Below are positions 2,947-47,567 of a DNA stretch of 62,811 bases, piece by piece. Each line of letters starts with the position of its first letter. The stretch's first letter is position 1. Origin of the DNA: Parcubacteria group bacterium GW2011_GWD2_42_14 (lineage in GTDB: Bacteria; Patescibacteriota; Minisyncoccia; Phycocordibacterales; UBA12088); the NCBI GenBank assembly GCA_000998045.1, contig LCCS01000002.1:1-62811 (forward strand), written 5' to 3'. A program made the position numbers and the translations under genes. A model generated the notes under the pieces. It ran no database searches. It was not told where the DNA came from and was given only the letters and a program-made list of their open reading frames with translations.

Positions 2947-3197
2947 ATTAGTTCGTTTTTTTTAAAAATGATAAAACTTGTTACTACTAGGACTGTTGAT
3001 ATGTGGATAGTTTATTTATCTTTATTTTTCAACATTTTTTCACTGCTTTGGTATAAACTCCTGTGGAAAGATGTGTATAAGTTTTGATGGTTTGAAAACA
3101 AGGAAGTAAATTCTTCACGCTAACCACATGTTTGCAGTACTTTTATACAACGTTTTCCTATACTTATCCACAATTAAAAAACAGACCTCTCCCCCAC
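2947..3197. promoter_or_regulatory. candidate oriC segment in the dnaA-dnaN intergenic region, with DnaA boxes and an AT-rich tract
   Basis: There is a perfect TTATCCACA at 3164-3172 and one-mismatch boxes TGTGGATAG at 3002-3010 and TGTGGAAAG at 3062-3070. An AT-rich run sits at 3011-3045. Confidence 0.5.
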
Positions 3198-4559: not shown

Positions 4560-4568
4560 TGAAATCAA

Positions 4569-14601: not shown

Positions 14602-15259
14602 TTGATAATTCTGATAACGGAATTGGTCTATCGAGCTCCCCAATATTAAATAGTCGGTAGAACAGCTCAATAATTTCTTCCGTACCCAACTGTGCGGCAC
14701 GTACACCAGTTCTTGAGAGACCTTGCACCACCATAGCCACTCTTTGCTCAATCTGAGATCGGTACTCTTCAAAGAGTTGCATTGAAATGTGCACCTCACC
14801 CTTGTTCTGTGTTTTAAAGATGGAACCAAGACCTTTGGGGTTTGAAGACATTTCCAATGATGGTGGATTATATGGAACCACCACATAAAATCCTTTTGTC
14901 ATAATACTTGCTCCTCCTACAAAACCTCGAACAAAGTCCATGTACTCTCGAACCTGAATTTTCATTAGTTCTGTCTGCTGCTTGTCCAATTGTTGCTCGA
15001 GTAGAGCGAGGTAGGGTCGTATATCCAACTCTCTTGATTGAATAAAAATTTGAATAGAAAAATCAAGAGAGTTTAAAAAGTTTTCAAATTGCTTAAGTAT
15101 AGCAGTCTGTTCATCCTCACTCTTAAGCACTATGTTTATAGAGGATGCCATAAGCACAGCACGCACCGTACCATCTTTAAGTACCATAATACCATCCCGC
15201 ACTTGCTCTATCGGCACGAAATCTTGACTTGGCTTGGCTCTTGATGATGCTTGTGACAT
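14591..15259 (-). CDS. protein resembling the extreme N-terminal region of Gram-positive VirB4 ATPases, encoded separately
   Basis: The segment FVPIEQVRDGIMVLKDGTVRAVLMASSINIVLKSEDEQTAILKQFENFL matches the N-terminal pattern of VirB4/Orf16-type proteins as I recall it. The start is ATG 15259, 4 nt after the upstream stop. Confidence 0.5.
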   Translation of the reverse strand: MSQASSRAKPSQDFVPIEQVRDGIMVLKDGTVRAVLMASSINIVLKSEDEQTAILKQFENFLNSLDFSIQIFIQSRELDIRPYLALLEQQLDKQQTELMKIQVREYMDFVRGFVGGASIMTKGFYVVVPYNPPSLEMSSNPKGLGSIFKTQNKGEVHISMQLFEEYRSQIEQRVAMVVQGLSRTGVRAAQLGTEEIIELFYRLFNIGELDRPIPLSELSNEK

Positions 15260-15263
15260 GTAA

Positions 15264-15683
15264 TTAGTGTATTTTTTTATCGTTATCAAACAAATTGTTT
15301 GTGTCTAATGACCATGCGAGCTGTCTCAGCTTAGATTGTGACATGGTGACAGAAACTGGTCTTGTTGTGTGTGCTTTCTCTATATCCTCAGTAATGTGCT
15401 TTTTTTGAGTTTTTTTCCATAAATAGAGCTTACTTTTAACGGCGTAAAATGAGGCAGAGTACAGTATATTAATAAAAGGTCTTCCTTGAACTTTTACAAA
15501 GGTCAAAAGAAAAGCTAGAAATAGTATGGGGATTCCTACGAGAGCTGCTATAAAAAGACCAAATTTTATAAAAATAGCAACAGTAATACCAACACTTCCA
15601 AGAATATAAATTCCTTGTTTAAATGTAAGTGGACCAAATATTTTGTCCTCAACATCTATGAATTGTGGTACAGAAAATCTCAT
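15264..15683 (-). CDS. PrgI-family (VirB3-like) membrane protein
   Basis: MRFSVPQFIDVEDKIFGPLTFKQGIYILG is followed by two transmembrane helices. This is the characteristic N-terminus of PrgI-family proteins. Confidence 0.6.
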   Translation of the reverse strand: MRFSVPQFIDVEDKIFGPLTFKQGIYILGSVGITVAIFIKFGLFIAALVGIPILFLAFLLTFVKVQGRPFINILYSASFYAVKSKLYLWKKTQKKHITEDIEKAHTTRPVSVTMSQSKLRQLAWSLDTNNLFDNDKKIH

Positions 15684-15755
15684 ATGATACAAGTGCGCGT
15701 TTTAATAACCGCCGGATGAAGAATATATAATATGAACGACCCGCACCATCGTCCC

Positions 15756-16169
15756 CTACTCCTGCACCTGTGCTCGATACGGGTCTAAGCCCCCCTGCAC
15801 CCCCTCATTCGGTAGAGCGTTTGCGGAAGGTTTGTTAGTGTCTGCAACAGTACCTAAAGAAAGCAGAAGGGCTTCCCGAACAGGATTAAAAATATGTTGC
15901 ACTACACCTTCAAACAGTGCCGTTGCTTTTTGGGGGTCTATGGGGAGCTCTGATGTAACGAACACTTTGAAATCCTTGGTCGTCGAAAGTCCTGTTGAGG
16001 CAAGAGTAATTTGTTCAATGCACACTTTTTTGTCTTTCTCCCCAAGACCCGCAACTTCTGTAAGTGCGCGTATACTCTCTGTAGTGACATCCGAAAGAAT
16101 GATATCCTTCACTCCATCAGGAAGGCGCGCAAATCGTTCAGTTACAGTTTTTTGGTCAAATGTTTTCAT
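15756..16169 (-). CDS. hypothetical soluble protein within the T4SS-like operon
   Basis: The 137-aa product has no transmembrane segment. The start lies immediately after the upstream stop. Confidence 0.5.
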   Translation of the reverse strand: MKTFDQKTVTERFARLPDGVKDIILSDVTTESIRALTEVAGLGEKDKKVCIEQITLASTGLSTTKDFKVFVTSELPIDPQKATALFEGVVQHIFNPVREALLLSLGTVADTNKPSANALPNEGVQGGLDPYRAQVQE

Positions 16170-16170
16170 A

Positions 16171-18564
16171 TTACACGCTCATTTTGTTGGTATCATTAAA
16201 CCAGTTATGCAGTTTAACAATATTCTGTTGTTCTGGGGTTAAGTTTTCCGAAGTTTTGACAGGCTGTCCAGTTTTTGGGTCAATAATTTTGCTCGATTCT
16301 GTAGGAATTTTAATCTTTGCATACTCTTTTTCTACCGCTACCTTCATAGCTTCCCTCTTCTCTTGTGATAGTCCCACTTTGACCATTCCGGTAAGTGTTT
16401 GAGGGTCTATGTTTTGTACCACCTCACCTCGTTGAAGGAAGGATACATCGTGTTCAGCCAAATCTGCCGGCTTAGTCATTCGTATCTCATCCTTCAATGC
16501 ATCACCAGTCAAAGATTCAAAATGAGCTTTTCGAGTACCGATAAATGTACCTACGGTTGGTGCATCGAACATATCATCCTTATTTTCCTTAATTTGTTTA
16601 AAGGTTTGGTGTGACATGTGTGCAACAGCACCTGGGTTTTCTGCCAAGGCAACAGCATTTTCTTTTATATCTGAACTAGACATATCCCGAAGTGTTTTTA
16701 TGTATGCCTTCTTTGTTTCTGCGTCTTGCGTTGTGTTTACTGTACGAATTGCTTCCCGTTCTTTTTTGAAAGCTGCTTCAGTGAGCTGTCTCCTCTGCAT
16801 AGGAGTTGCACTTTCCTTAGCTGCCAATGCTGACGCATGTTTCTTACTGTACGCATTTATCATTTGAGGGGTATCGCCAGCTTTTCCAGAGTTTTCGCGA
16901 AGACGTTCAATTTCGGCCTGTGATGCGCTAGCAATTTTCCTCTTCGCGATATCATGTGCTGTTTTCTGGTTTTCAGCATAGTATTTGCTGTTAACAATGC
17001 CCGTTGCTTCTTTCAGCTCAGTATCTCTTCCTGTTTCATTAAGTTCTTTAATGCGTGCGTCAGAATTTTTCTTATTTGAAAGTTTCCTTTCCGCAAAACT
17101 ACTACCACCAAACTTCATACCTGCTCCTGCCCCAACAGCAGTACTAAGTCCACGATCAATTCTTCCTCCGGAGAGACCTCGTTTTAGTTTTGCCATTGGA
17201 GATTTATGTACATACTGACCATTTTCCATCCTGTTTGCTTCGGCCATGTCTTCAGCGTACTTTCTCTGAGCGCGTGATGAAGCCCACCCAACCGTATAAG
17301 CCCCTGCCAAACTCCCAGCTCCTATAGCCACACTCCGTGACCATTTCTCGCCGGTCTTAAGCACTGCGTCTGCTCCATGTGCCCCAAGTTTTTTCGCCAC
17401 AATAAGTCCTGCAATAAGAAAACCAATGACAGTAATAAACATTGTTGCGATTGAGATTGCAGAAGGGGAGACTGTGCCTACTGATCCTAGTGTTACGCCA
17501 GCATAACTGTTTGTATAGTCTCTTAAAATAACATAAGCTATCCACCAGCAGAGCAGTAGTGCAGGTGGAAAAATACTCTGATTGATGAGTGAATGCCACC
17601 ACGCGCGTCCTTGCCCTGAAACACCTGTTATCCAGAGCACAAGCGCAAGAGGTGAAACTATAAGTAGGAAGACAAGAATAATAAAACGAGCAATAAAAAG
17701 GAAGCCCGCCCCCCCAAACACAAATGCTAGCACTATAAACATAGCAGTTGCCATGAGATAGGTAAGGGTCATAGTCCAGTATAGACTGGTTTCATCACCA
17801 CCTTCTGGATCACCTGCTTTCAATGCCGAAAAATCAAAAATAGTAGTGATTTTGAGCTGAGTCCAAAAAGCCGAAGCAATACCATTGCTGATACACACCA
17901 CGTTGTTGTTCTCAATCGCTCCTGTGGACCTCACTCGTTCAGCACATTCTGCAGGTATAGTACCTGCCGCCTCAGACTGAAACATCAAGACTGTTTGAAT
18001 AGCTGTGAGATTAGATATATCTATTATCACTTTGGTAAACGTAACACTGAAGTTGACAAGTAGTGCTGCCAGTACCACCTTCCACAACATTTGCTTGGCC
18101 CCAAAACCCGAGATACCGAGAATAGTTGCAATACCTATGTAAACTGTTAAGAACACCAAAAACACATTAGTAATATCACGTATCGTTTTCCACGCGGTCA
18201 TGATAGCGTTCATTGACCGAACCACCTCACCCATTCCTACCACAAGCTCATTAAGTGCAAAGTTAAAAAAGAGTCCCATCCAACCCGCTATTTTGTAAGA
18301 AAGCGCCATCACATAATATGTCATAAAGGCGACACATCCAGCAAAAGAGCTAGTTGTGAGTTTTCCATCTTGGAAACAGCCCGTACTGGGTGCATAGCTT
18401 CCATCGTCTAGACCGTTTTCGGTAGCCTCTGCGAGGCTTTGACCTGTACCACTTTGAGCAAATGTAGTAAGTGGCGCAAGTGCGGGCAACACCACCGTAC
18501 TTGTTAGAAACAACACAAGTAGTGTCTGAGCAATATGTTTTTGATGTTTTTTAAAAAAGTTCAT
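16171..18564 (-). CDS. large polytopic membrane protein, VirB6/TrbL-like, with a long charged C-terminal tail
   Basis: A signal-like N-terminus is followed by at least 8 hydrophobic helices over about 450 aa and then a Lys/Ala/Glu-rich tail of about 330 aa. The VirB6 assignment rests on topology and context only. Confidence 0.45.
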   Translation of the reverse strand: MNFFKKHQKHIAQTLLVLFLTSTVVLPALAPLTTFAQSGTGQSLAEATENGLDDGSYAPSTGCFQDGKLTTSSFAGCVAFMTYYVMALSYKIAGWMGLFFNFALNELVVGMGEVVRSMNAIMTAWKTIRDITNVFLVFLTVYIGIATILGISGFGAKQMLWKVVLAALLVNFSVTFTKVIIDISNLTAIQTVLMFQSEAAGTIPAECAERVRSTGAIENNNVVCISNGIASAFWTQLKITTIFDFSALKAGDPEGGDETSLYWTMTLTYLMATAMFIVLAFVFGGAGFLFIARFIILVFLLIVSPLALVLWITGVSGQGRAWWHSLINQSIFPPALLLCWWIAYVILRDYTNSYAGVTLGSVGTVSPSAISIATMFITVIGFLIAGLIVAKKLGAHGADAVLKTGEKWSRSVAIGAGSLAGAYTVGWASSRAQRKYAEDMAEANRMENGQYVHKSPMAKLKRGLSGGRIDRGLSTAVGAGAGMKFGGSSFAERKLSNKKNSDARIKELNETGRDTELKEATGIVNSKYYAENQKTAHDIAKRKIASASQAEIERLRENSGKAGDTPQMINAYSKKHASALAAKESATPMQRRQLTEAAFKKEREAIRTVNTTQDAETKKAYIKTLRDMSSSDIKENAVALAENPGAVAHMSHQTFKQIKENKDDMFDAPTVGTFIGTRKAHFESLTGDALKDEIRMTKPADLAEHDVSFLQRGEVVQNIDPQTLTGMVKVGLSQEKREAMKVAVEKEYAKIKIPTESSKIIDPKTGQPVKTSENLTPEQQNIVKLHNWFNDTNKMSV

Positions 18565-18578
18565 ATTTTATTGCTCCC

Positions 18579-19856
18579 CTAGAAGGGGCTACCAATTGAG
18601 CCTGACATACTACCATCACTACCAATCTCACCCGACATGTTACCAATTGAGCCTGATATGCTACCATCACTACCAATTGAGCCTGATATTCCTCCGCTAC
18701 TTGAACCTCCACCAGACGTACCACTGGTTGTTCCTCCACCAGACGTACCACTGGTTGTTCCACCACCCTCACCTCCACCTGAAACCCCACCCGACGTTAC
18801 TGTACTGTTGTCCCCAGTGTCTCTACTACCCCTAAGCAGACCTTGTTCTACGTCATTAAATATATTATTTACAAGAGCAGCAAGGACTTCACCGAGTACC
18901 TCAGCTATTTCGTCTGCTACCTCGAGTTGTCCCAACCCTCCACCTAGCCAGTCATCAATCTGTTTTGAAATGATTTGTCCAGGGGTACACACCTCTCGTT
19001 GTCCATCACCATTTATGTCACATTTGTCTGAGAAGTATCCATCACCATATGAAAGCAGGGTTGCTTCCTCTGATGTAGTACGGCCTACTCTACCTGCAGC
19101 CTCAGACTGTACTTCAAAAAATGAGCCGTAGGGGTTGTTGGAATCTATAGCGAGACCCATCGCTGCTGGTATACCTCCTCCTTCAAAATTTAAATCTCCT
19201 TGCATAACCATTCTTTCATATCCCGCATCAACACCCATCCCACCGACATAATTTTCAAGACTACAGATATTCTGACCAGTCGAACCGTAGTTGGTCCGCC
19301 CACCTAGCTGTGTAACCGTCTGGCGTACATCATTTTCAAAAGGCGAACACAACCATTGACTTAAACCACTACTTTCAAGAAATGTGTTAAACGCGGTAAA
19401 TGCAATATCCCGAAAAAAACCGCTCAAATCTGTCAAAAAGACTGGACCATTATCAAAACCATCGTTTATCCAGTCCAAAATAGCCTGTGTGATAAAGTTT
19501 ATTAGGAGGCGTTTAATCACCCAAATAATAGGGTCAAGAACGCACTCCTTAAAAATAAGTTCTGCTGTTTTCTCTGCTGTTTGCTCGACATCGTTAAGTA
19601 ATTGATAATTTGTTTCATTTACAGGCACTGAGTCAACAAAGGCACCTATAACAGTGCCAAAAATTTCGTCAAAGAACCCTTCTATAAATCCCTCAAAGTA
19701 ACATGCCATGACTCCCACAACTCCTCCCATAATGATGCTTCCGGTTGATTGTTGCGCCTCCACTTTTTGAGCAGGTGCAACTCCTAGATATAGAAACGGT
19801 GTCATGACCGTCACCATAAGTACTGAAACGATAAAGTTTTTAAAATATGTAATCAT
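18579..19856 (-). CDS. secreted or membrane protein with a C-terminal Gly/Ser/Thr repeat tail
   Basis: It has an N-terminal hydrophobic segment and a Cys-containing central domain. The C-terminus reads GGGTTSGTSGGGTTSGTSGGGSSSGGISGSIGSDGSISGSIGNMSGEIGSDGSMSGSIG. Confidence 0.6.
   Translation of the reverse strand: MITYFKNFIVSVLMVTVMTPFLYLGVAPAQKVEAQQSTGSIIMGGVVGVMACYFEGFIEGFFDEIFGTVIGAFVDSVPVNETNYQLLNDVEQTAEKTAELIFKECVLDPIIWVIKRLLINFITQAILDWINDGFDNGPVFLTDLSGFFRDIAFTAFNTFLESSGLSQWLCSPFENDVRQTVTQLGGRTNYGSTGQNICSLENYVGGMGVDAGYERMVMQGDLNFEGGGIPAAMGLAIDSNNPYGSFFEVQSEAAGRVGRTTSEEATLLSYGDGYFSDKCDINGDGQREVCTPGQIISKQIDDWLGGGLGQLEVADEIAEVLGEVLAALVNNIFNDVEQGLLRGSRDTGDNSTVTSGGVSGGGEGGGTTSGTSGGGTTSGTSGGGSSSGGISGSIGSDGSISGSIGNMSGEIGSDGSMSGSIGSPF
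18591..18790 (-). repeat. in-frame tandem DNA repeats encoding the Gly/Ser tail
   Basis: A perfect 27-nt tandem duplication lies at 18706-18732 and 18733-18759. The unit ACCAATTGAGCCTGAYATRCTACCATCACT recurs at 18591, 18642 and 18672. Confidence 0.85.
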
Positions 19857-19859
19857 GTG

Positions 19860-20849
19860 CTAATTATCTGAACCAGGGTTGACGTTTTGATGCAGTTCAA
19901 AATATCTACGCAAAATGGAAATGGTGTGTATGAGGCGTCCTCGTACGGTCTGGAACACATTAACTGAAGCTGCTGTACGAAGAGGGTCTGAATTTATAAA
20001 GGAAAAGCCCTCTATGGTAAATGTATACTGCATAAGTGCTTGAACAAAACTTACATGAAGTCCTACAGCATCTTCAGGTACTTCCATCGTGCGAAGTTTG
20101 TCTGTATGTATTGTATACACATGTACCATTTCAGATAATACCCCTGCAGCCCACTCCTTGTCTCCTTGAGCAAGTGCAAGGAACGCCTCATCCTCATTAT
20201 CACTTCCTGTGGTCATTGCAAGAACAATTTCCCGTACTGTTGCAATGTATTGCATTCGACTTTCCGATGTAGCGGGAACACTTCGTACCTCACTTTGGTT
20301 GTATGTAGGTGCAGTAACTAAAGGAGTAACTTTCCCCAGCGCTTGTTGTACCATCTCTTCCTGTTGTTCTTTACTGAGATCCGTCCCGCTTTTAAGTGAA
20401 TATAGATAGGAAGCAAACAATTCTTTTGCAAGTGCATCTGTAGAGGTAGGAGGAACGTCACTATTCTTATGATTTTCAGGTTCCATTCCAACCGTATCTG
20501 CACCTACCTCGTTTTCTAAACCGGATGCAATACTCAATGATTCACTTGCAACGAACACTTGATCTCTATCGGAGACACCATCGCCATCCGTATCAGGTTT
20601 GGTAGGATCTGTAGACCATAGCACCTCCTCCCAGTCTGCCAAACCGTCTTCATCTGAATCTTGTTCATATGCTTTTGTTATTATCTCAGGGTCTATTTCA
20701 GAATTTGTAGCAAGTTGAGTAGTAGTATTTTTCTGGTTACCGTCTTCGTAAAAAACATACGAAACTGCAATAATGAAAACTACAGCAACGACAGTTATGG
20801 TCGTTGCCACAATACGATTTGCTGAGCCAGCCACATATCGAGTCCTCAT
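19860..20849 (-). CDS. membrane-anchored protein with thrombospondin-type-3-like calcium-binding repeats; first gene of the operon
   Basis: An N-terminal transmembrane helix is followed by DSDEDGLADWEEVLWSTDPTKPDTDGDGVSDRDQ, a DxDxDG-type repeat pattern. Confidence 0.6.
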   Translation of the reverse strand: MRTRYVAGSANRIVATTITVVAVVFIIAVSYVFYEDGNQKNTTTQLATNSEIDPEIITKAYEQDSDEDGLADWEEVLWSTDPTKPDTDGDGVSDRDQVFVASESLSIASGLENEVGADTVGMEPENHKNSDVPPTSTDALAKELFASYLYSLKSGTDLSKEQQEEMVQQALGKVTPLVTAPTYNQSEVRSVPATSESRMQYIATVREIVLAMTTGSDNEDEAFLALAQGDKEWAAGVLSEMVHVYTIHTDKLRTMEVPEDAVGLHVSFVQALMQYTFTIEGFSFINSDPLRTAASVNVFQTVRGRLIHTISILRRYFELHQNVNPGSDN

Positions 20850-36109: not shown

Positions 36110-36262
36110 ACTAGTAGTATACCTGAAAGGAAAAATGAGTCAACAAAAAAGCTATTGACTCACTGTTTCGTATAGTTTGTTTCAGGAAAGTTATATAAAA
36201 GCCCATTTTTTTCTTAATCTGTGGCTATTTTCCGTTCGTACAAATTGTGCGACACTATTGGT

Positions 36263-37102
36263 ATGCCAAAAACAGAACTTGAGTCCCTGAAAGATGCGTA
36301 TCTATCATCTATTGCGACTGAGCAAGGAAAAAGCAAAAAAACAGTAGAAAACTATACTCGTTATTTAGATAGATTCTTCTCGAATACTCAAGTAATACAC
36401 CCTAAAGACATCACGATTCCAATTGTGGAGAAATATCGTACTGGACTTACGGTGTTGAAAACCAATACTCAAAACTATCATCTCACAGCGCTTAGGAGAT
36501 TACTTGATTATTTGAAGAAACATCAGGTTTCGTCCCTTGAACCTGAAATGATAAAGCTTACCCCGAGTACCACTTTCTCAGTACAGAGCATGTCTCCACA
36601 CGACGTGAGGAGTTTGTTGCAAGCATCTCAAGGTAAGGATGTAAAGAGCCTACGAGATCGTGCAATCCTACTTTTGTTTTTCAGAACAGGTATGCGAGTA
36701 TCCGAACTGTGCGCGTTAGATGTTGATAGTTTTTCTGATAATAGACTTGTGAAGTATGGAACAGGAGTACGTGCGCGCAGTGTTTTGCTACCGACAGAAG
36801 CAAGAGATGCTTTATGTGCGTACCTTGATGTGAGGAGTGACCCCCATAAAGCATTGTTTGTAAACAATGGGAAGCGGTTTTCATCGGAGGGCGACACTCG
36901 GTTGAGTGTTCGTCAGGTAGAGAGGATTATCAAACAATGCGCTCTACAAGTGGGAATTGTGTCAGTAGTGACACCACAGAGATTGCGTTCTTTATATGCA
37001 CAGGATTTGCTCAAAAACGGCGCAGATGTTGGGTCTGTACAAGAATTACTTGGTCACCAGCATGTTGCATCTACAAAAGTGTACTACAAAAATAATAAAT
37101 AG
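36263..37102 (+). CDS. tyrosine recombinase of the XerC/XerD family
   Basis: The product has RDRAILLLFFRTGMRVSELCALDV and LRSLYAQDLLKNGADVGSVQELLGHQHVASTKVY, matching the R..H-R-Y catalytic pattern. Confidence 0.8.
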   Translation: MPKTELESLKDAYLSSIATEQGKSKKTVENYTRYLDRFFSNTQVIHPKDITIPIVEKYRTGLTVLKTNTQNYHLTALRRLLDYLKKHQVSSLEPEMIKLTPSTTFSVQSMSPHDVRSLLQASQGKDVKSLRDRAILLLFFRTGMRVSELCALDVDSFSDNRLVKYGTGVRARSVLLPTEARDALCAYLDVRSDPHKALFVNNGKRFSSEGDTRLSVRQVERIIKQCALQVGIVSVVTPQRLRSLYAQDLLKNGADVGSVQELLGHQHVASTKVYYKNNK

Positions 37103-39657: not shown

Positions 39658-41151
39658 CTATACTTTATGTTTCCTACGCAATTCCTCTAATTCTCTTTCC
39701 TCTACTTCTTCTTTTTTGTTTTTGCCTTGCTTCCCTTTTTCTGCTAATTCCTCATCAGGAAGTGTAGAAAGCTCTAGAACACGTTTTTCAAGCAGATCCT
39801 CGGTATTCATGCTTGGGTCATCCAAAACTTCTTCAAGAAGCGCATGGAGCATGTTACCTATTCTTGGACCTGGCTTTTCACGTGTAACATCCATAATTTT
39901 CAGTCCATCAATTTTAAGCATATCAACAGATACAGGGTCTCGAAGTGCTTCTTCAACCATACTTGTGTATTTCCTAAACCTAAATGGCTGTTCTTTAGGT
40001 CTTCCTGAACCGATACGATCGCACATGCGGACATTTAGTAACTCCCAAATATTCTCTACTCCAACGTTTACAATCATTCTACGAACTGCAGAAAGTGTAA
40101 TCTTGTCAGGATCGCTAAAAAACATATGCCAACGTACTAATTTGACGATTTTTTCGACAGTTTCTTTTGGAAAACGCAGGTTCTCTAAAGCTTTACGTGT
40201 TACACGTGAACCCACTACCTCGTGTCCGTAGAATGTATATTCCTTTGTCTCTGCAGAATTTCTTCTGCTTGCTGGCTTCCCGATATCATGAAAAAGTGAT
40301 GCAAGCCGTACCTCAAGTGAAAAATTCTTATCTGCAGCATGCTGAAGTGCACGCAATAAATGTTCGAAAACTGTGTATATATGAGAATGATTTTGTTCAA
40401 TACCGATACCAGATTCCAGGTCTGGAAGGATATACGTTAATAACCCGGTTTGTTTCATGTGTAACAATGCCTCCATGGGGTAGGGGGACATTATGGTTTT
40501 AATAAGCTCATCACGAATCCGTTCTTTTGATATGTTTTTAAGCAAATGTGCATTTTGTGATATAGCCTCAAATGTTTTTTGTTCTATACTGAATCCAAGC
40601 TCTGCTCCAAGTCGTATGGCACGGAGCATTCTAAGCGCATCTTCCTGAAAACGCTCATTAGGATTGCCGACTGCACGGAGCTGTTGAGCTGCAAGATCTG
40701 CTTGTCCTTTATAACAGTCAACAATATGTCCTTTATCGATATCAAGAGCAAGTGCATTGATAGTAAAGTCTCTTCTTGCAAGGTCTTCATGTAATGAGAC
40801 GCCAAATTCAACGTTGTCAGGACGCCTGCTGTCAGAATAGGTACCTTCTTTGCGATATGGGGTAACCTCAATAACCTTGAGAGTTGGGTCGGTTGCTTTT
40901 TCGTCTGCCTGTGTAGACGACATGCTTACCACCCCGACTGTTCCGAATTGGTTGTTGTAAAACGTTTCTTCAAAAAGCGCTTGTATTTGGTCTGGGTGTG
41001 CGTTTGTGGTTATATCCCAATCCTTAGGTGTTTTGTTTAAAAGTAGATCACGAACACAGCCACCAACCAAGTAGGCTTCAAAATTAGCCCTTTTGAGGGT
41101 AGATGTTACACGTGTAACCTCTTGGGGAATCGAGTAGTTTGCACTATCCAT
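39658..41151 (-). CDS. cca: CCA-adding tRNA nucleotidyltransferase with an HD domain
   Basis: The product has LVGGCVRDLLLNKTPKDWDITT, RRDFTINALA and the HD segment LFHDIGKP. Confidence 0.85.
   Translation of the reverse strand: MDSANYSIPQEVTRVTSTLKRANFEAYLVGGCVRDLLLNKTPKDWDITTNAHPDQIQALFEETFYNNQFGTVGVVSMSSTQADEKATDPTLKVIEVTPYRKEGTYSDSRRPDNVEFGVSLHEDLARRDFTINALALDIDKGHIVDCYKGQADLAAQQLRAVGNPNERFQEDALRMLRAIRLGAELGFSIEQKTFEAISQNAHLLKNISKERIRDELIKTIMSPYPMEALLHMKQTGLLTYILPDLESGIGIEQNHSHIYTVFEHLLRALQHAADKNFSLEVRLASLFHDIGKPASRRNSAETKEYTFYGHEVVGSRVTRKALENLRFPKETVEKIVKLVRWHMFFSDPDKITLSAVRRMIVNVGVENIWELLNVRMCDRIGSGRPKEQPFRFRKYTSMVEEALRDPVSVDMLKIDGLKIMDVTREKPGPRIGNMLHALLEEVLDDPSMNTEDLLEKRVLELSTLPDEELAEKGKQGKNKKEEVEERELEELRRKHKV
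41104..41118. promoter_or_regulatory. palindrome site 3 (TGTTACACGTGTAAC, 15 of 16 positions) inside the first codons of cca
   Basis: It encodes EVTRVTS, 33 nt into the cca coding sequence. Confidence 0.7.
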
Positions 41152-41202
41152 GGAGCAATACTATCGCATTTTTCTTGTTTTTCCTATACAATGCACACAT
41201 CT

Positions 41203-41277
41203 GCGCCCGTAGTGAAATGGATATCACTCCGGTCTTCGGAACCGTCATTCCAGGTTCGAGTCCTGGCGGGCGCACCA
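41203..41277 (+). tRNA. tRNA-Arg(TCG) with an encoded CCA end
   Basis: A cloverleaf folds by hand: acceptor GCGCCCG/CGGGCGC, D stem GTGA/TCAC, anticodon loop CTTCGGA and T arm CCAGG-TTCGAGT-CCTGG. Confidence 0.9.
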
Positions 41278-41323
41278 CAACACAAAAACCTCATCACCAT
41301 GAGGTTTTTGTGTTGTGGTGCGC
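41270..41323. repeat. perfect 25-bp-stem palindrome that includes the 3' acceptor strand of tRNA-Arg
   Basis: GCGCACCACAACACAAAAACCTCAT, a CACC loop, then ATGAGGTTTTTGTGTTGTGGTGCGC. Confidence 0.9.
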
Positions 41324-41389
41324 CGAGTAAGGTGCCTACGCACCTTACGCCCAGACTCGAAGACACAGAGCATGTTGCGTAGCAACAGC

Positions 41390-41484
41390 GAGTGGCCGTC
41401 CAAGAATGCGAGTATACTTTGTCCTCCACCAGTGAGCGGAGGACAAAGTATCCGCAATTCTGGGACGAGTCCTGGCGGGCGCAC
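41390..41484 (+). ncRNA. conserved tRNA-linked structured element, copy 1 (unknown class, strand uncertain)
   Basis: GAGTGGCCGTCCAAGAATGCGAG, then a 14-bp hairpin, then ATCCGCAATTCTGGGACGAGTCCTGGC. Both blocks are identical or nearly identical to 47399-47476. The tail repeats 18 nt of the tRNA-Arg 3' end. Confidence 0.5.
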
Positions 41485-41575
41485 ATAAAATACAAAGACC
41501 CCGTTTCTATGGGGTCTTGTATTTATTGAACCCCTCACCTCGAATAGATGAGGTGAGGGGTGTGTGGATGTGCCA

Positions 41576-42007
41576 CTACTCAAGGTAAACGATAGGGATA
41601 TCAAAACTTTTTACTGCTTCGTGTTCACAAATTGCATCAAAGCTCGCGGAAAAATTTTCGCAAAAGTGAACAGTTGCAAATATACCACTCATGATGAGGG
41701 GTATAGAAAAATCATGCAAATAGGGGTAAGGATACTTTGTAATCTTCTGTAAAGCGAGAATTTTTTCAATTACAGGCCGAAATGAGAGTATATCAAGCAC
41801 AGTCCAACCCTTGCTTGATAACATGTCAGAATGGCCAGCAGGTATATGAAAATTTTCTTCCATTATCACCCCGTTTTTTTGAGGCTTTTCGCCGAGGACG
41901 ACAGTTTTGTTAGCCCCCTCTGCCTTCCGCATCAAATCATAGGCATATACATACAAATCATTAAATGCCTGCATTGATCCTAATGTATCTTCTGCGCGCA
42001 GTATCAT
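41576..42007 (-). CDS. hypothetical protein
   Basis: The 143-aa ORF has an AAGGAGGTG Shine-Dalgarno site upstream and two hairpin terminators downstream. I recognise no domain. Confidence 0.55.
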   Translation of the reverse strand: MILRAEDTLGSMQAFNDLYVYAYDLMRKAEGANKTVVLGEKPQKNGVIMEENFHIPAGHSDMLSSKGWTVLDILSFRPVIEKILALQKITKYPYPYLHDFSIPLIMSGIFATVHFCENFSASFDAICEHEAVKSFDIPIVYLE

Positions 42008-42081
42008 ACGCCACCTCCTTAGTAAAGGTTAATCTAATCTTGTTGTAGTATACACCTGCGTATAAATATGTAAATTAATAT

Positions 42082-42109
42082 TTGACGAAAATATCGTCAC
42101 AAGTATACT
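42082..42109 (+). promoter_or_regulatory. promoter TTGACG-N16-TATACT, ending 11 nt before ATG 42121
   Basis: TTGACG lies at 42082-42087 and TATACT at 42104-42109. Confidence 0.5.
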
Positions 42110-42120
42110 TATAAATAACC

Positions 42121-42909
42121 ATGGACTTTGTTGTTGATCAGTTTAAATTCTTGGGGCTTAACAATCGTGAGATACGAGTTTTTACTTCTATTGGTACCTT
42201 TGGTCAAATGAATATGACGAAAATAGCTTCACGATCGCAACTACCACGCACCACGGTAGATGCTATTGTGAGACGACTTTTTAAACAAGGTCTTATTTCA
42301 AAAGAGAAAGTAAATGGACACTTCGAATATTTTGTTCAACCTAGTGAAGTGGCAGACAAGCTCGATTTGCTTGAGCAGAAACTACGTCCAAAGAAACCGA
42401 CAGAAAAGGAACAAGAACCCTCAATAACGGAGGAAAAAATAAATGACGAAAAAAACGTCATCGCCCTAAATCCTATAGACATTTTGGAAATAAGTTTCAA
42501 AACTCATCGTGCGGATAGGGTGCGACTTATGCTCTCGCATATACAGCGTGAGGGAGAGAAAAGTTGTGTGGAGAGGCTGCGGGTATATACCAAATTGGCT
42601 GTAGAGAACCAGATGAAATTTGACGTCCTGTTATCCCCACAAATTGCAGATGCAATATACGGAAAGAAGCATTTATTTGCATATTCTCAAGCCTCACTGA
42701 ATATACGTCTTAATATTATTCCTGCTTTCTACAGTATTTTGGAACATGATGTGTGTATGTTTCGGGATTCAGTTATGCTCATACATACCCATAAGAACAC
42801 CATAGAAAAAATAGATTCCTTAACACATGTTGATCTCTGTAACCACCTACTCACCATAGCTTCTGAGGTGGGGTGGAGTGTAGATTTGGTTACTTGGCTA
42901 AATAAGTAA
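42121..42909 (+). CDS. TrmB-like winged-helix transcriptional regulator with an uncharacterised C-terminal domain
   Basis: The N-terminus reads LGLNNREIRVFTSIGTFGQMNMTKIASRSQLPRTTVDAIVRRLFKQGLISKEK. Confidence 0.55.
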   Translation: MDFVVDQFKFLGLNNREIRVFTSIGTFGQMNMTKIASRSQLPRTTVDAIVRRLFKQGLISKEKVNGHFEYFVQPSEVADKLDLLEQKLRPKKPTEKEQEPSITEEKINDEKNVIALNPIDILEISFKTHRADRVRLMLSHIQREGEKSCVERLRVYTKLAVENQMKFDVLLSPQIADAIYGKKHLFAYSQASLNIRLNIIPAFYSILEHDVCMFRDSVMLIHTHKNTIEKIDSLTHVDLCNHLLTIASEVGWSVDLVTWLNK

Positions 42910-43849
42910 CGAGTAAGGCGAGTAGCGAGAAAAGCGAAAAATGGACTAAAAGTTTAAAGTTATAAAGTTCATAACGCTGAAAGTAACGAAAAGTGCACAT
43001 GTTGCGGGAAAGTGGACTTTTTGTACTATGAAAGTTATGATATATCACGATACGAGAACCGCGGGTATGATTAAGTGGTATAATACGTCCTTGCCAAGGA
43101 TGATTCGGGAGTTCGATTCTCCCTACCCGCACATTATGCAAAAACAGCAGCTCATTTTGAGTTGCTGTTTTTGCATATCGTTGGGCAATCTGTGGATTTC
43201 CGCCTGTTCCAGACAGTGCATCCATTGCTTGTTGCGTAGTATCAAACACACTTGCCAAGTAAAACGCTAGAATCTTCTTTCCGTTTTCCCAGTCAAAAAG
43301 ATTTAGAAGATATTTTTCAACAGCAGACTGATCACCTCCAACTCTGGCTACTATATTTGCTATGTCTTGCATCACTATCTGTGCTCGCGGAGCGATGTCG
43401 TCTATATCAAGTAGGCGTTGGTTGCGCCCTTGAGACATTAAATGTCCTATTTCAGCAAAAGATCCATACACAAATTGATCTGAGCGCACGAGGATGTCTT
43501 GAGGGCCAAAACTTTTTATATTGCCAGAACGTTCTGGACTTATGTATTCGTCATACTCATTCGGGTCGACCCTCACTGGAATTAGATTTTCAACAAATTG
43601 AGTAAACTCTCGTATTTTTTCTTCTTTTTGGGCAAACTCATTATCCTCAGGGTGTAAGTCTCCAAAATATCGGGTTTTTAAGTTATACAGCTGCAATTCA
43701 CTTTTTTCCCGTAAACGGTCGAAATTATTTTGTTCGATTATATCGGAATACAATGTCCGAAGGTCTGGGTTTTTTGCGATTTTTTCTCGTTCTCCTTTCA
43801 CCAAATCATCTTCAGCGAACTTACTTAGAGCGGGAAATGTTTCTTTCAT
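42890..43849 (-). CDS. hypothetical protein whose 3' end is unreliable because the ORF reads antisense through tRNA-Gly
   Basis: The first 239 or so codons look protein-like. The remainder (RVGRIELPNHPWQGRIIPLNHTRG...) is the antisense translation of a tRNA and spacer. Confidence 0.45.
   Translation of the reverse strand: MKETFPALSKFAEDDLVKGEREKIAKNPDLRTLYSDIIEQNNFDRLREKSELQLYNLKTRYFGDLHPEDNEFAQKEEKIREFTQFVENLIPVRVDPNEYDEYISPERSGNIKSFGPQDILVRSDQFVYGSFAEIGHLMSQGRNQRLLDIDDIAPRAQIVMQDIANIVARVGGDQSAVEKYLLNLFDWENGKKILAFYLASVFDTTQQAMDALSGTGGNPQIAQRYAKTATQNELLFLHNVRVGRIELPNHPWQGRIIPLNHTRGSRIVIYHNFHSTKSPLSRNMCTFRYFQRYELYNFKLLVHFSLFSLLALLVTYLAK
42911..42929 (+). repeat. GAG-stop repeat (GAGTAAGGCGAGTAGCGAG)
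   Basis: It matches 4663-4681 at 18 of 19 positions and begins 2 nt after the stop codon. Confidence 0.75.
42948..42994 (+). repeat. AAAGTT-type post-stop repeat
   Basis: The sequence is AAAAGTTTAAAGTTATAAAGTTCATAACGCTGAAAGTAACGAAAAGT. Confidence 0.75.
43061..43131 (+). tRNA. tRNA-Gly(GCC)
   Basis: Acceptor GCGGGTA/TACCCGC, anticodon loop TTGCCAA and T arm GGGAG-TTCGATT-CTCCC. It is followed by the hairpin at 43138-43174. Confidence 0.85.
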
Positions 43850-44546: not shown

Positions 44547-45416
44547 ATGGCTCAGATAGACAAATACTCAATACGTGATTTGAAGGCGGATTTTCCCGAC
44601 GATGATACAGCTCTTGCTTTTATATTTGATGCATTACACAGTCACCAGTGCTCTTGTGGAGGTGTATATAAAAAGGTTTCTAACCGCCGTAAGTATCAAT
44701 GTTCAAAGTGTCGTTTCCAAATAGCACCTACTGCGGGCACAATCTTTCATAAATCTGATACTCCACTAAACCTATGGTTCCACGCAATCTGGGTATTTTC
44801 AAACGCAAAGAGTGGTGTTTCAGCTAAAGAACTTGAACGACAACTCGGTGTAACGTACAAAACTGCATGGCGCATGCTAAAGCTCATAAGAGAGGCACTT
44901 GGTGTGCATGGTGGCATGCTCCGTGGTGATGTTGAAACTGACCTTGGGTACTTTGGAGGTATAAAAAGCGCTGGAGCAAATAATGTAAATTTAAGTGAGT
45001 CTATCGCACACAAATCACCAGTCATGGTTGCGATAGAGCGTGGTGGTACTATGATTGCTGAAGTAGTCACAGACGGTACGACAAAAACTCACACAAGCTT
45101 TGTAGAACGAAACATTGAAAAAGGCTCTCGCCTACTTACAGACAAGAGCAATAAATATCACAGCGTGGCAAAAGGATACGACAGATTTTCAGTAAACCAT
45201 TCAAAAGGCGAGTATGCGTGGTGCGGTATACATATTAATCACGTAGAATCGTTTTTTGCTCACGTAAAGCGTTCGATGAAGGGGACGTACAAGGTTGTTT
45301 CAAAGAAGTATCTTCAGTTGTACTTGAATCAGTTTGCGTGGCTTTACAACAATCGACACAACGACAGGGCACGGTTTGGGGCACTGCTCGGTACCGTATT
45401 GCTCGGCGTAAGATAG
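44547..45416 (+). CDS. IS1595-family transposase (zinc ribbon plus ISXO2-like DDE domain)
   Basis: The product has CSCGGVYKKVSNRRKYQCSKCRFQIAPTAGTIFHKSDTPLNLWF...AKELERQLGVTYKTAWRMLKLIR. A TTGACA-N16-TATACT promoter lies inside the left inverted repeat, with the -10 element 6 nt before the ATG. Confidence 0.85.
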   Translation: MAQIDKYSIRDLKADFPDDDTALAFIFDALHSHQCSCGGVYKKVSNRRKYQCSKCRFQIAPTAGTIFHKSDTPLNLWFHAIWVFSNAKSGVSAKELERQLGVTYKTAWRMLKLIREALGVHGGMLRGDVETDLGYFGGIKSAGANNVNLSESIAHKSPVMVAIERGGTMIAEVVTDGTTKTHTSFVERNIEKGSRLLTDKSNKYHSVAKGYDRFSVNHSKGEYAWCGIHINHVESFFAHVKRSMKGTYKVVSKKYLQLYLNQFAWLYNNRHNDRARFGALLGTVLLGVR

Positions 45417-46904: not shown

Positions 46905-47150
46905 CATAAACACCTCTATACCCGTGCGACCATAGCAAAATAAAGAAAAAGGTGGTAGATTTTATCGACACATACGAAAGTGAGTAGAGGGGCACACCTC
47001 GACACTCACGAAGTAAGTGACGGGGTGTACCCTGTAGCTGAATTTCAATTCAGCTACGCTGGCACATCTTGTAATATTTGAGGTAAGATTCGTATTCAAG
47101 TTCAAGTGGTTATTTTTCGATGAAAGTATTAACCAATTGAAATTTCACTA

Positions 47151-47221
47151 CGGGGTGTAGCATAGTGGCAGTGTTCGCGGTTTGGGACCGCGCGGTCCGG
47201 GTTCGATTCCCGGCACCCCGA
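47151..47221 (+). tRNA. tRNA-Pro(TGG)
   Basis: Acceptor CGGGGTG/CACCCCG, anticodon loop TTTGGGA and T arm CCGGG-TTCGATT-CCCGG. Confidence 0.9.
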
Positions 47222-47273
47222 CAAAATAGTAAAACCGAAGGTATACCTTCGGTTTTACTATTTTGTCGGGGTG
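47214..47273. repeat. perfect 28-bp-stem palindrome that includes the 3' acceptor strand of tRNA-Pro
   Basis: CACCCCGACAAAATAGTAAAACCGAAGG, a TATA loop, then CCTTCGGTTTTACTATTTTGTCGGGGTG. Confidence 0.9.
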
Positions 47274-47398
47274 AGCAAGCAACCAATGTTGCTTGCGTCC
47301 GGAATCGCACCACAAGAGTATTTCCATTTTCATAGTCGTTGTCATTCCTTGAAAATTTGGTCAAGCCACGGAACATGTTCCGTGGCGCGAGGAACTGT

Positions 47399-47476
47399 GA
47401 GTGGCCGTCCAAGAATGCGAGAAGTTTTGAGTGCAGATCACGAAAAAACATCCGCAATTCTGGGACGATTCCTGGC
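47399..47476 (+). ncRNA. conserved tRNA-linked structured element, copy 2
   Basis: GAGTGGCCGTCCAAGAATGCGAG, then a different hairpin, then ATCCGCAATTCTGGGACGATTCCTGGC. Confidence 0.5.
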
Positions 47477-47567
47477 TCCTTTATTTTGTACAACGTAATA
47501 TTGTTGATACTATTACTAATATGAATTTGCACAATAACGAGTTAGGTGAAATTGAGTTCAAACAATT

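What the first reader, a model, noticed from the sequence alone, without database searches (positions are those of the whole stretch)
41203..41484. tRNA-Arg followed by a giant palindrome and a conserved structured element ending in a degenerate tRNA 3' half
**Palindrome.** Directly after an intact tRNA-Arg(TCG) there is a perfect 25-bp-stem palindrome (41270-41323). Its outer arm is the tRNA 3' acceptor strand plus CCA.

**Downstream structure.** This is followed by a 9-bp hairpin (41327-41348). Then comes a block GAGTGGCCGTCCAAGAATGCGAG, a 14-bp hairpin, and ATCCGCAATTCTGGGACGAGTCCTGGC.

**Folding and tRNA similarity.** The two conserved arms can pair as CGUCC/GGACG, AGAAU/AUUCU and GCG/CGC. 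The tail mimics tRNA positions from about 39 to 73 but has a mutated T-loop (GACGAGT instead of TTCGAGT). It repeats 18 nt of the tRNA-Arg 3' end exactly (41258-41275 equals 41467-41484).

**Second copy.** The same architecture recurs after tRNA-Pro, 6 kb away.

**Class.** I cannot match it to tmRNA, RNase P RNA, SRP RNA, group I/II introns or common ribozymes by eye.
Basis: seen in the sequence. Interest (0 to 1): 0.8.

Follow-up and report, generated by a model that had tools for sequence, protein, structure and literature searches.

The report
Tiny hairpin mobile element in tRNA genes
The sequence after tRNA-Arg is a 209-base, gene-less, hairpin-rich DNA insertion that copies the end of the tRNA gene; it belongs to a previously undescribed family that sits behind many tRNA genes in Saccharibacteria-like bacteria and is still present or absent between near-identical strains.

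Summary
**Observation.** It is confirmed, including the second copy after tRNA-Pro.

**What it is.**
- It matches no known RNA family in Rfam.
- It is a discrete 209-bp insertion (41276-41484). A near-identical strain (contig L042) lacks exactly these bases.
- It has three copies of the tRNA 3' part:
  - A, the working tRNA end.
  - B, an inverted copy that starts exactly at T54 of the T-loop.
  - C, a displaced direct copy followed by the tRNA's original terminator.
- Between B and C lies a conserved core of about 110 nt, made of two nested hairpin arms.

**Distribution.** Related elements follow Arg, Pro, Ser, Gly, Trp and Tyr tRNA genes in related genomes. There are at least four core families, and some occur in tandem. 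Orthologous tRNAs in other relatives are empty.

**Structure.**
- The helices covary strongly (16 pairs with compensatory changes; 0 of 500 shuffles reach this).
- Pairing is almost purely Watson-Crick (1 G-U in 200 cells).
- There is no promoter, and terminators flank the element. This favours DNA hairpins over an RNA gene.

**Best reading.** It is a miniature, non-autonomous element that integrates site-specifically at the tRNA T-loop. It may integrate as a folded single strand, because the A/B/C triad is what CTXφ-type integration leaves. The enzyme and the single-stranded form are inferred, not shown.

The parts
41203..41277 (+). tRNA-Arg(TCG), intact, with genomically encoded CCA. Positions about 59-76 plus the CCA are supplied by the inserted element (copy A).
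   Evidence: ARAGORN and Rfam. The empty allele L042 ends GCGCAC|ATAAAAT with no CCA.
41276..41484 (+). The 209-bp insertion. Because of the 19-nt repeat, it can equally be placed at 41257-41465. It is absent from the empty-site allele.
   Evidence: L042 is identical to window 40960-41275 and then continues at 41485, so exactly 209 bp are missing.
41257..41275 (+). Direct repeat, copy 1 (in the tRNA: CGAGTCCTGGCGGGCGCAC).
41269..41324 (.). Perfect palindrome (26-bp arms, 4-nt loop). The inner part resembles a two-way intrinsic terminator. The outer part pairs the tRNA acceptor 3' strand plus CCA with its inverted copy.
   Evidence: repeat I1.
41316..41361 (-). Copy B: an inverted copy of tRNA positions 54-76. 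On the minus strand it reads TTCGAGT-CTGGG-CG[hairpin]GGCGC-ACCA. It starts exactly at T54.
   Evidence: repeat I3; reverse complement of B aligned to the tRNA.
41327..41348 (.). 9-bp side hairpin interrupting copy B inside the acceptor-complement segment (between GCGCC and CG; in the Pro and Ser copies it lies at the acceptor/T-stem boundary). Its sequence differs in every copy while pairing is kept.
   Evidence: helix 1: 8 of 9 pairs show compensatory changes and 100% of cells are paired.
41357..41468 (+). Conserved core (family RM1). P1 (41364-41366/41392-41394) encloses P2 (41373-41378/41382-41387). P3 (41397-41410/41452-41467) encloses P4 (41414-41427/41438-41451). The right terminus is GGGACGA.
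   Evidence: Covariance-model hit of 97.2 bits. Folds. Covariation.
41466..41484 (+). Copy C: direct repeat copy 2, the displaced ancestral tRNA 3' end. Weaker similarity extends back to 41455.
   Evidence: It is contiguous with the original trailer, as in L042.
41487..41525 (+). Ancestral intrinsic terminator of tRNA-Arg, now 209 bp away from the tRNA.
   Evidence: Terminator scan gives 41495-41518. In L042 it directly follows the tRNA.
47151..47222 (+). tRNA-Pro(TGG), host of the second RM1 element.
47214..47273 (.). 30-bp perfect palindrome that includes the tRNA-Pro acceptor 3' strand.
47274..47311 (-). Side hairpin (47275-47296) followed by the inverted copy of the tRNA-Pro T-arm (TCCGGAATCG).
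47306..47365 (+). Nested mini-insert of about 60 nt that interrupts the Pro element. It is not part of the RM1 core.
   Evidence: It forms a gap in the alignments. Copies occur in other elements.
47361..47468 (+). RM1 core, second copy.
   Evidence: Covariance-model hit of 101.5 bits.
47453..47483 (+). Decayed copy C of the tRNA-Pro 3' end (GATTCCTGGCTCCTTTA). This element is fixed in all 10 contigs examined.

Best explanation
**What it is.** Window 41276-41484 is a miniature (209 bp), gene-less, non-autonomous integrative DNA element that has inserted at the T-loop of the tRNA-Arg gene. The tRNA-Pro copy is an older, fixed insertion of the same family.

**What the element carries.**
- Its own replacement for tRNA positions about 59-76, plus a terminator hairpin. 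The tRNA therefore stays intact (copy A).
- An inverted copy of the same tRNA part (copy B).
- A conserved core made of two hairpin arms.

The original tRNA 3' end (copy C) and its terminator are displaced downstream.

**Inferred mechanism.**
- A tyrosine-type site-specific recombinase, supplied in trans, recombines the element with the T-arm of the tRNA gene. Candidates are the host's single Xer-like enzyme or a helper element's enzyme.
- The 7-nt T-loop would be the crossover region.
- The substrate is most likely the element folded as a single strand. In that fold the stem (copy A/C paired with B) imitates the double-stranded tRNA 3' part. P3 stacks on this stem as the left arm.
- One strand is exchanged and replication completes the insertion, as for phage CTXφ at dif.

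**What this accounts for.** It leaves one functional site and two non-functional sites (A, B inverted, C). It lets new copies stack next to the tRNA.

**Shown versus inferred.**
- Shown: the insertion and its boundaries, the triad, the family, the structural constraint, and the polymorphism.
- Inferred: the recombinase, the single-stranded form, and the single-strand exchange.
For: **Precise presence/absence.**
- Contig L042 joins window 41275 directly to 41485. There are 0 mismatches in 316 nt on the left and 5 in 1020 nt on the right.
- Other contigs from the same population break inside 41246-41319.

**Empty orthologous sites.** L022 and L023 tRNA-Arg, L023 and L017 tRNA-Pro, and all tRNAs of L028, L029 and L031 carry no element.

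**The same A-loop-B-core-C layout at six tRNA species.**
- It follows Arg, Pro, Ser, Gly, Trp and Tyr tRNA genes.
- B and C always match the local tRNA.
- B starts at T54 in all four core families.
- 11 of 32 unique tRNA loci have a direct repeat of at least 10 nt, and 12 have an inverted repeat of at least 10 nt.

**Trailers.** The trailer after A differs from the trailer after C, and the latter is the ancestral one. It matches the empty-site allele L042 exactly and resembles the tRNA-Arg trailer of L021. A and its terminator therefore arrived with the element.

**Arrays.**
- L025 has a 159-nt unit repeated 2.1 times at 100% identity.
- L017 tRNA-Arg and L026 tRNA-Pro carry two successive elements.

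**Structural constraint.**
- 96.5% of cells are paired, and 16 pairs show compensatory changes.
- 0 of 500 shuffles reach this, and the slid controls give 30-44% paired.
- Each core folds on its own into P1(P2)+P3(P4).
- P1 pairs the left and right parts of the core and covaries. The unit is therefore not a random deletion remnant.

**DNA rather than RNA.**
- Only 1 G-U cell in 200.
- The palindromes of 26 and 30 bp are perfect.
- G:T mismatches number 13 and A:C mismatches 11.
- No promoter was found, and terminators lie on both sides.
- There is no Rfam hit.
- The 209-nt strand folds as DNA at -77.7 kcal/mol, z = -14.

**Literature.**
- The T-loop is a known integrase crossover site (PMC1762012, PMC4383910).
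- CTXφ integration of a folded single strand leaves one functional dif site plus two non-functional dif-like sites (PMC3089051).
Against: - No recombinase is encoded in or next to the element.
- The only tyrosine recombinase in the window (36221-37102) is syntenic in all relatives, including those without elements. It scores below the XerC, XerD and integron-integrase cut-offs.
- No free, circular or single-stranded form was seen.
- No copy was found in phage, plasmid or viral collections.
- The empty allele could also arise by homologous deletion between the 19-nt repeats.
- In the fold, the stem covers only the T-loop and the right arm. The left arm must be supplied by P3 stacking, which is conjecture.
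- How one core family acquires the 3' part of a different tRNA is unexplained.
- Some repeats are very long (over 60 nt in L026 tRNA-Gly, including the terminator). That is atypical of a simple core identity.
- The sample is small: about 15 elements, from one clade.
Confidence: 0.5

Rival explanations
1. Scar of a classical integrase-borne island. A double-stranded element with its own tyrosine integrase once integrated at the tRNA T-loop. Internal deletion then left only attL, attR and the adjoining arm sequences. The result would be a CIME-like cis-mobilisable remnant that a related integrase can still excise.
For: - An intact tRNA plus a displaced 3' fragment in direct orientation is the hallmark of tDNA islands (PMC4383910).
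- The identity begins in the T-loop.
- An empty allele exists.
- Tandem accretion is seen.
Against: - Sizes are uniformly 150-400 bp, and no gene-bearing version was seen in about 15 cases.
- Helix P1 spans the supposed deletion junction and covaries.
- The conserved hairpins have freely varying sequence, so they are not protein-binding arm sites.
- The inverted copy B, with a fixed T54 boundary in four unrelated core families, is not a feature of classical attP arms.
Confidence: 0.2
2. An expressed structured non-coding RNA, on either strand, that is linked to tRNA genes. Its ends pair through the tRNA-derived segments. Possible roles include a processing signal, a decoy, or an antisense regulator of the tRNA 3' half.
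For: - Strong covariation and a conserved architecture.
- Very low folding energy on both strands: z = -7.6 and -8.7.
- Conserved unpaired junction sequences (ACGGAAC, CAGTGAG).
- A conserved GA/GA-flanked stem in P4 of the Pro-type copies.
Against: - No promoter; the element is flanked by terminators on both sides.
- Only 1 G-U in 200 paired cells, and no strand asymmetry.
- Perfect 26-30 bp palindromes.
- Dispensable: absent in a 99.5%-identical strain and in orthologous loci.
- Four unrelated cores occupy the same context.
- No Rfam family matches.
Confidence: 0.15
3. A local rearrangement with no mobile element. Replication template switching at the terminator's inverted repeat and at the palindromic TTCGAA of the T-loop would produce an inverted triplication (direct-inverted-direct) of the tRNA 3' part.
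For: - The A/B/C zig-zag is the known product of two template switches.
- The palindrome centre lies in the terminator loop, and B ends at the T-loop, whose TTCGA core is part of the palindromic hexamer TTCGAA that many tRNAs carry.
Against: - It does not explain a 110-nt core with identical blocks at Arg, Pro and Ser tRNAs in different genomes.
- It does not explain why the trailer after A is foreign.
- It does not explain the covarying core helices.
Confidence: 0.05
4. A gene-less derivative of an IS200/IS605-type single-strand transposon (a palindrome-associated element) that inserts 3' of TTCGA. The tail would serve as a TnpB-type guide.
For: - Hairpins lie near both ends, and the element inserts next to a fixed pentanucleotide.
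- A conserved scaffold is followed by a variable 3' segment that matches the target.
Against: - These transposons make no target duplication. Here the repeats are 11 to over 60 nt and are tRNA-specific.
- TTCGA occurs about once per kb, yet copies are found only behind tRNAs.
- No TnpA or TnpB is encoded in the window.
Confidence: 0.03

Closest known systems
Genomic islands and phages that integrate at the T-loop of tRNA genes via tyrosine integrases (e.g. mycobacteriophage Ms6; Islander-type tDNA islands)
   Same: - The target is the tRNA T-loop.
- The element restores the tRNA 3' end.
- The displaced 3' fragment remains as a direct repeat.
- Empty and filled alleles both exist.
- Elements can accumulate in tandem.
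   Different: - It is only about 150-400 bp, with no integrase and no cargo.
- It carries an additional inverted copy of the tRNA 3' part.
- It carries a covarying hairpin core.
CTXφ-type IMEX elements (folded single-stranded attP recombined by XerCD at dif)
   Same: - It has two att-like sites in inverted orientation, separated by a short spacer that can fold into a forked hairpin.
- After integration there is one functional target site plus two non-functional copies (one of them inverted).
- It encodes no integrase.
- Tandem arrays occur.
   Different: - The target is a tRNA gene, not dif.
- It has no phage genes and no replication protein.
- The hairpin stem covers only the crossover region and one arm.
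- Xer involvement and a single-stranded form are untested.
Integron gene cassettes (attC hairpins)
   Same: - These are small, promoter-less units.
- Structure rather than sequence is conserved in the hairpins.
- Extra-helical features (the side hairpin here) sit in the recombination stem.
- Units stack in arrays at a fixed platform.
   Different: - There are no R''/R' core sites: GTTCGAG does not fit GTTRRRY.
- There is no IntI or attI.
- The units carry no ORF.
- The platform is a tRNA gene.
Miniature palindromic repeat elements with no known transposase (Rickettsia palindromic elements, Correia elements, and CIMEs)
   Same: Short, non-coding, highly structured, patchily distributed and non-autonomous.
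   Different: - The target is strictly one position of tRNA genes.
- They copy the target's 3' part in both orientations.
- They have no terminal inverted repeats of the usual kind and no fixed-length target duplication.

Membership tests
tDNA-integrating elements (tyrosine integrase, T-loop sublocation) | An intact tRNA and a displaced 3' fragment, in direct orientation, bracket the element. | tested here: met
   The 19-nt repeat 41257-41275 = 41466-41484. The same holds at Pro, Ser and Gly loci.
tDNA-integrating elements (tyrosine integrase, T-loop sublocation) | The identity block begins in the T-loop and runs to or past the tRNA 3' end. | tested here: met
   The identity starts at position 56-60 of the tRNA in every copy.
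tDNA-integrating elements (tyrosine integrase, T-loop sublocation) | The element encodes its own integrase next to an att site. | tested here: not met
   The element is 209 bp with no conserved ORF. Neighbours have no integrase hits.
tDNA-integrating elements (tyrosine integrase, T-loop sublocation) | An unoccupied site exists in related genomes. | tested here: met
   L042; L022 and L023.
IMEX / CTXφ-type folded-attP elements | Two inverted att-like sites that can pair into a hairpin. | tested here: met
   Copy A/C pairs with B, with a 0-10 nt loop or a terminator hairpin between them.
IMEX / CTXφ-type folded-attP elements | Integration leaves one functional target site and two non-functional copies. 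| tested here: met
   A is functional, while B (inverted) and C (direct) are non-functional. The CTXφ description is in PMC3089051.
IMEX / CTXφ-type folded-attP elements | The target is the chromosome dimer resolution site dif, recombined by XerC/XerD. | tested here: not met
   The target is the tRNA T-loop. The role of the Xer-like protein cannot be tested here.
IMEX / CTXφ-type folded-attP elements | A single-stranded replicative or phage form exists. | not testable with these tools
   No hits in viral, phage or plasmid collections. Read-level data are needed.
Integron cassettes | An attC site with R''/R' core sites (RYYYAAC / GTTRRRY). | tested here: not met
   The junction sequence GTTCGAG has C where a purine is required (read from the sequence).
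Integron cassettes | An adjacent IntI integrase. | tested here: not met
   The only recombinase scores 84.5 bits against a cut-off of 265 for integron integrase, and it lies 4 kb away.
IS200/IS605 derivatives | No target-site duplication, with TnpA or TnpB in the genome. | tested here: not met
   Direct repeats are 11 to over 60 nt. No Y1_Tnp or TnpB is found in the window.
Known RNA families (Rfam 15), tRNA/tmRNA | A covariance-model match at or near the gathering score. | tested here: not met
   Only the four tRNAs reach gathering score. The best other hit over the core has E > 0.1. ARAGORN finds no tmRNA or extra tRNA.
Structured RNA in general | Own promoter and terminator, G-U pairs, and strand asymmetry. 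| tested here: not met
   No promoter; 1 G-U in 200 cells; 13 G:T against 11 A:C mismatches.

The most novel reading that the evidence does not exclude
**The reading.** tRNA genes of these Saccharibacteria serve as integration platforms for a new class of gene-less 'cassettes'. These move as folded single-stranded DNA. The hairpin imitates the double-stranded T-arm and acceptor end of a specific tRNA gene. A host Xer-like recombinase performs a single-strand exchange at the T-loop.

**Possible source of the single strand.** It could arise during natural transformation or rolling-circle replication. The cores might be minimal origins or packaging signals of an unknown single-stranded helper.

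**Why it would be novel.** This would be the first CTXφ/integron-like single-strand integration system aimed at tRNA genes, and the first described for the CPR.
Probability: 0.25. Interest if true: 0.85.

Novelty: new variant of a known kind. Interest (0 to 1): 0.62.

Why it matters
**For CPR genome biology.** The tiny, streamlined genomes of CPR bacteria would carry an active family of minimal mobile DNA that has gone unnoticed. It would explain frequent assembly breaks and strain variation next to tRNA genes.

**For recombination mechanisms.** It would give a compact natural example, about 200 nt with no genes, of how a folded DNA can mimic a tRNA-gene target for site-specific recombination.

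**Practical use.**
- It would offer a handle for finding the recombinase.
- It could help build integration tools for organisms that are very hard to engineer.
- It warns annotators that tRNA-like 3' fragments and 'structured RNA' candidates behind CPR tRNAs may be DNA elements.

Tried and rejected
**Known-family searches.**
- Rfam at gathering and relaxed thresholds on the window and on six loci found only tRNAs, plus unrelated Twister-P5 ribozymes in L003 and L004.

**Collection scans.**
- Viral contigs with two patterns: 0 hits.
- blastn of the element against phage and plasmid collections: no match.
They gave only 3 true loci.

**Alternative mechanisms considered.**
- Primer-binding-site idea (B complementary to the mature tRNA 3' end, as in retroelements): rejected. 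B matches the genomic trailer, not the CCA-tailed tRNA, at the Pro and Ser loci.
- tRNA-like or tmRNA-like fold of the tail: rejected. The constant TCTGG cannot pair with the Pro or Ser T-stem 3' strands.

**Looking for an autonomous partner.**
- Pfam and PHROGs searches on the 7-kb insert behind L021 tRNA-Arg, and on window neighbours, found no integrase, Rep or phage hits.

**Strand and copy tests.**
- The strand test by G:T versus A:C mismatches was uninformative: 13 against 11.
- Covariance-model R1 found no extra copies away from tRNAs in 264 kb.

**Literature.** Five full-text searches found no description of such elements.

**Pro element.** A polymorphism search found it fixed in all 10 contigs.

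Full report
**1. Observation**

- tRNA-Arg(TCG) is at 41203-41277.
- It runs into a perfect palindrome with 26-bp arms (41269-41294/41299-41324). The outer arm is the tRNA acceptor 3' strand plus CCA.
- A 9-bp hairpin (41327-41348), two conserved blocks, a 14-bp hairpin and a tail follow. The tail repeats 19 nt of the tRNA 3' end exactly.
- The blocks occur exactly twice in the window, the second time behind tRNA-Pro with the same layout. About 0 matches are expected by chance.

The segment after the 9-bp hairpin (41348-41361) is complementary to the tRNA T-loop and T-stem. The distal palindrome arm plus this segment is therefore an inverted copy of the whole tRNA 3' part, interrupted by the hairpin.

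**2. Not a known RNA**

Rfam finds only the four tRNAs at gathering score. It finds nothing credible over the element at E up to 10. ARAGORN finds no tmRNA or extra tRNA.

**3. Source and relatives**

*Source.*
- The window is a chromosomal origin-proximal region. It carries dnaA, dnaN, a type IV secretion-like cluster, and RNases.
- The organism is a groundwater Saccharibacteria-like CPR bacterium. Identical genes occur in Rifle-site assemblies, and the only matching reference genome is a Saccharibacteria MAG.

*Pattern scans.* They recovered the same core behind tRNA-Pro (L002), behind tRNA-Ser (L006), and in a gapped scaffold (L001).

*Syntenic loci.* I fetched loci through homologues of the neighbouring CCA-adding enzyme and scanned all tRNAs in them.
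- About 14 of 32 distinct tRNA loci (Arg, Pro, Gly, Ser, Trp, Tyr) carry a non-coding insert of 150-400 nt.
- All inserts share one layout: A (tRNA 3' part), then a loop or terminator, then B, then a structured core, then C.
  - B is an inverted copy of the tRNA from T54 to the acceptor end, often with trailer.
  - C is a direct copy from about position 56-60 to the 3' end, 11 to over 60 nt long.
- At least four core families share this context.
  - RM1 is the window's family.
  - RM2 is clearly related to RM1.
  - RM3 and RM4 are unrelated in sequence.
- B and C always match the local tRNA.

**4. It is an insertion, and a recent one**

- Contig L042, from another sample of the same site, is identical to window 40960-41275. 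It then continues at 41485, with 5 mismatches in 1020 nt. Exactly 209 bp are absent, and tRNA-Arg is joined directly to the terminator at 41487-41525.
- Several short contigs of the same population end inside 41246-41319. This is expected of a bubble or palindrome in the assembly graph.
- More distant relatives have an empty tRNA-Arg site (L022, L023). Others have a different element at the same tRNA (L017 has RM3 plus RM2; L025 has two perfect 159-nt tandem copies).
- The trailer after C is the ancestral one, and the trailer after A is foreign. A, its terminator (and here the encoded CCA), B and the core therefore arrived together.
- The Pro element has a decayed C. It is fixed in all ten contigs examined, so it is older.

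**5. Structure**

*Core architecture.* Each RM1/RM2 core folds on its own into the same shape: P1 enclosing P2, then P3 enclosing P4.

*Covariation on a six-sequence alignment.*
- 96.5% of cells are paired.
- 16 of 34 pairs show changes on both sides.
- No shuffle out of 500 reaches this, and the slid controls give 30-44% paired.
- The side hairpin in B changes sequence completely between copies while staying fully paired. Its position is kept: at the acceptor/T-stem boundary of B in the Pro and Ser copies, and two bases inside the acceptor-complement segment in the window's Arg copy.
- P1 pairs the left and right parts of the core and covaries. This argues against a random deletion remnant.

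*Signs that the structure acts at the DNA level.*
- Only one G-U cell in 200.
- Perfect 26- and 30-bp palindromes.
- No excess of G:T over A:C mismatches, 13 against 11.
- No promoter.
- Terminators on both flanks.

*Single-strand fold.* The 209-nt strand, permuted as an excised circle, folds as DNA at -77.7 kcal/mol with z = -14. It forms three arms: the A/C:B stem with its side hairpin, P1/P2, and P3/P4.

**6. Mechanism**

*Shown.*
- A discrete insertion at the tRNA T-loop that regenerates the tRNA.
- The A/B/C triad.
- A fixed B boundary at position 53|54 in four core families.
- C boundaries within the T-loop.
- Tandem stacking.
- Structural constraint.
- Presence/absence polymorphism.

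*Inferred.*
- The 7-nt T-loop flanked by the T-stem is a known crossover region for tyrosine integrases.
- The triad is what integration of a folded single strand produces. Exchange of one strand on the 5' arm of a hairpin att site, followed by replication, gives target-left/arm-right, then loop, then the inverted arm, then the rest of the element, then arm-left/target-right.
- This is one functional and two non-functional sites, as described for CTXφ at dif.
- I therefore propose a non-autonomous element recombined at the T-loop by a recombinase acting in trans, probably as a folded strand.

*Weak points.*
- No enzyme is identified. The window's Xer-like gene is syntenic even in element-free relatives.
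- No free form was seen.
- The left arm of the mimic site has to come from P3 stacking.
- It is unexplained how a core family switches to a different tRNA.

**7. Rivals**

- *Scar of a classical integrase island.* It fits the direct repeats. It does not fit the uniform small size, P1 covariation across the supposed deletion junction, or copy B.
- *Structured RNA.* It fits the covariation. It does not fit the Watson-Crick-only pairing, the lack of a promoter, or the dispensability.
- *Template-switch triplication.* It explains A/B/C. It does not explain an identical core at different tRNAs or the foreign trailer.
- *IS200/IS605 derivative.* It fails on the long tRNA-specific repeats, and no transposase is present.

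**8. Novelty**

Five full-text literature searches found no description of such elements. They are closest to T-loop-integrating tDNA islands in target and outcome. They are closest to CTXφ-type elements and integron cassettes in architecture. They fail defining features of each: no integrase, no dif, no attC core sites.

I rate the finding a new variant of a known kind. The stronger reading, a single-strand cassette system built on tRNA genes, is not excluded.

Noticed in passing
window 47306-47365: A mini-insert of about 60 nt (CACCACAAGAGTATTTCCATTTTC...GAAAATTTGGTCAAG) is nested inside the tRNA-Pro element. Similar copies sit inside other tRNA-linked elements (L017 and L036 tRNA-Gly, L001 tRNA-Trp). 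Two contigs start exactly there. It looks like a second, even smaller mobile sequence.
   Followed up: partly
L017:884-955 versus window 47147-47230: In a close relative (CCA-adding enzyme 87% identical at the protein level), the tRNA-Pro gene with its first 8 trailer bases is inverted relative to the window and carries no element (blastn 98.8% identity, reversed).
   Followed up: partly
window 43177/43178; L036: A 61.8-kb contig is 100% identical to window 40076-43177. It diverges exactly after the tRNA-Gly(GCC) terminator. There it carries an RM4-type element and a different downstream gene variant, while the window has none. The tRNA-Gly flank is a strain-variable recombination boundary.
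   Followed up: partly
L003:2978-3024, L004:3568-3614, L005:576-622: GC-rich marine or other metagenome contigs share AGTG-CCGTCCAAGAAT...ATTCTGGGACG, the same helix with the same A·G mismatch as P3. It lies just upstream of a small minus-strand gene, and Twister-P5 ribozymes lie about 2 kb away. Whether this is chance or a distant relative was not resolved.
   Followed up: partly
window 41275-41277 versus L042: The inserted element gives tRNA-Arg a genomically encoded CCA. The empty allele has no CCA (GCGCAC|ATAAAAT). The CCA-adding enzyme gene is the immediate upstream neighbour.
   Followed up: no
L021:8900-9100 (minus strand), L017:4300-4450 (minus strand): RM2-like modules (...TTCGTRCTCATGTGCGAG...AGTGCTTAG[hairpin]TTAGYAACTCGTGACCAC) lie downstream of tRNA-Arg without their own inverted or direct tRNA copies. 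They may be older elements pushed away from the tRNA.
   Followed up: no
window 47426-47448; L002, L001, L022 equivalents: P4 of the Pro-type cores keeps a GA-[4-bp stem, 3-nt loop]-GA motif. The 4-bp stem is swapped (GTGC/GCAC to GCAC/GTGC) between copies. This is a conserved tandem G·A feature of unknown meaning.
   Followed up: no
window 44547-45416: An IS1595-family transposase gene lies between tRNA-Gly and tRNA-Pro, next to a DUF3800 gene. Both are absent from the syntenic region of L017 and L022, so this inter-tRNA stretch is a variable island.
   Followed up: no
window 1846-4568 and 12751-20849: dnaN and dnaA mark the replication origin region. A TraG/VirB4-like ATPase with several large proteins that have no family hits suggests a type IV secretion-like cluster.
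   Followed up: no
L048 versus window 47133: One strain has a 10-nt tandem duplication (CAATTGAAAT) just upstream of tRNA-Pro.
   Followed up: no
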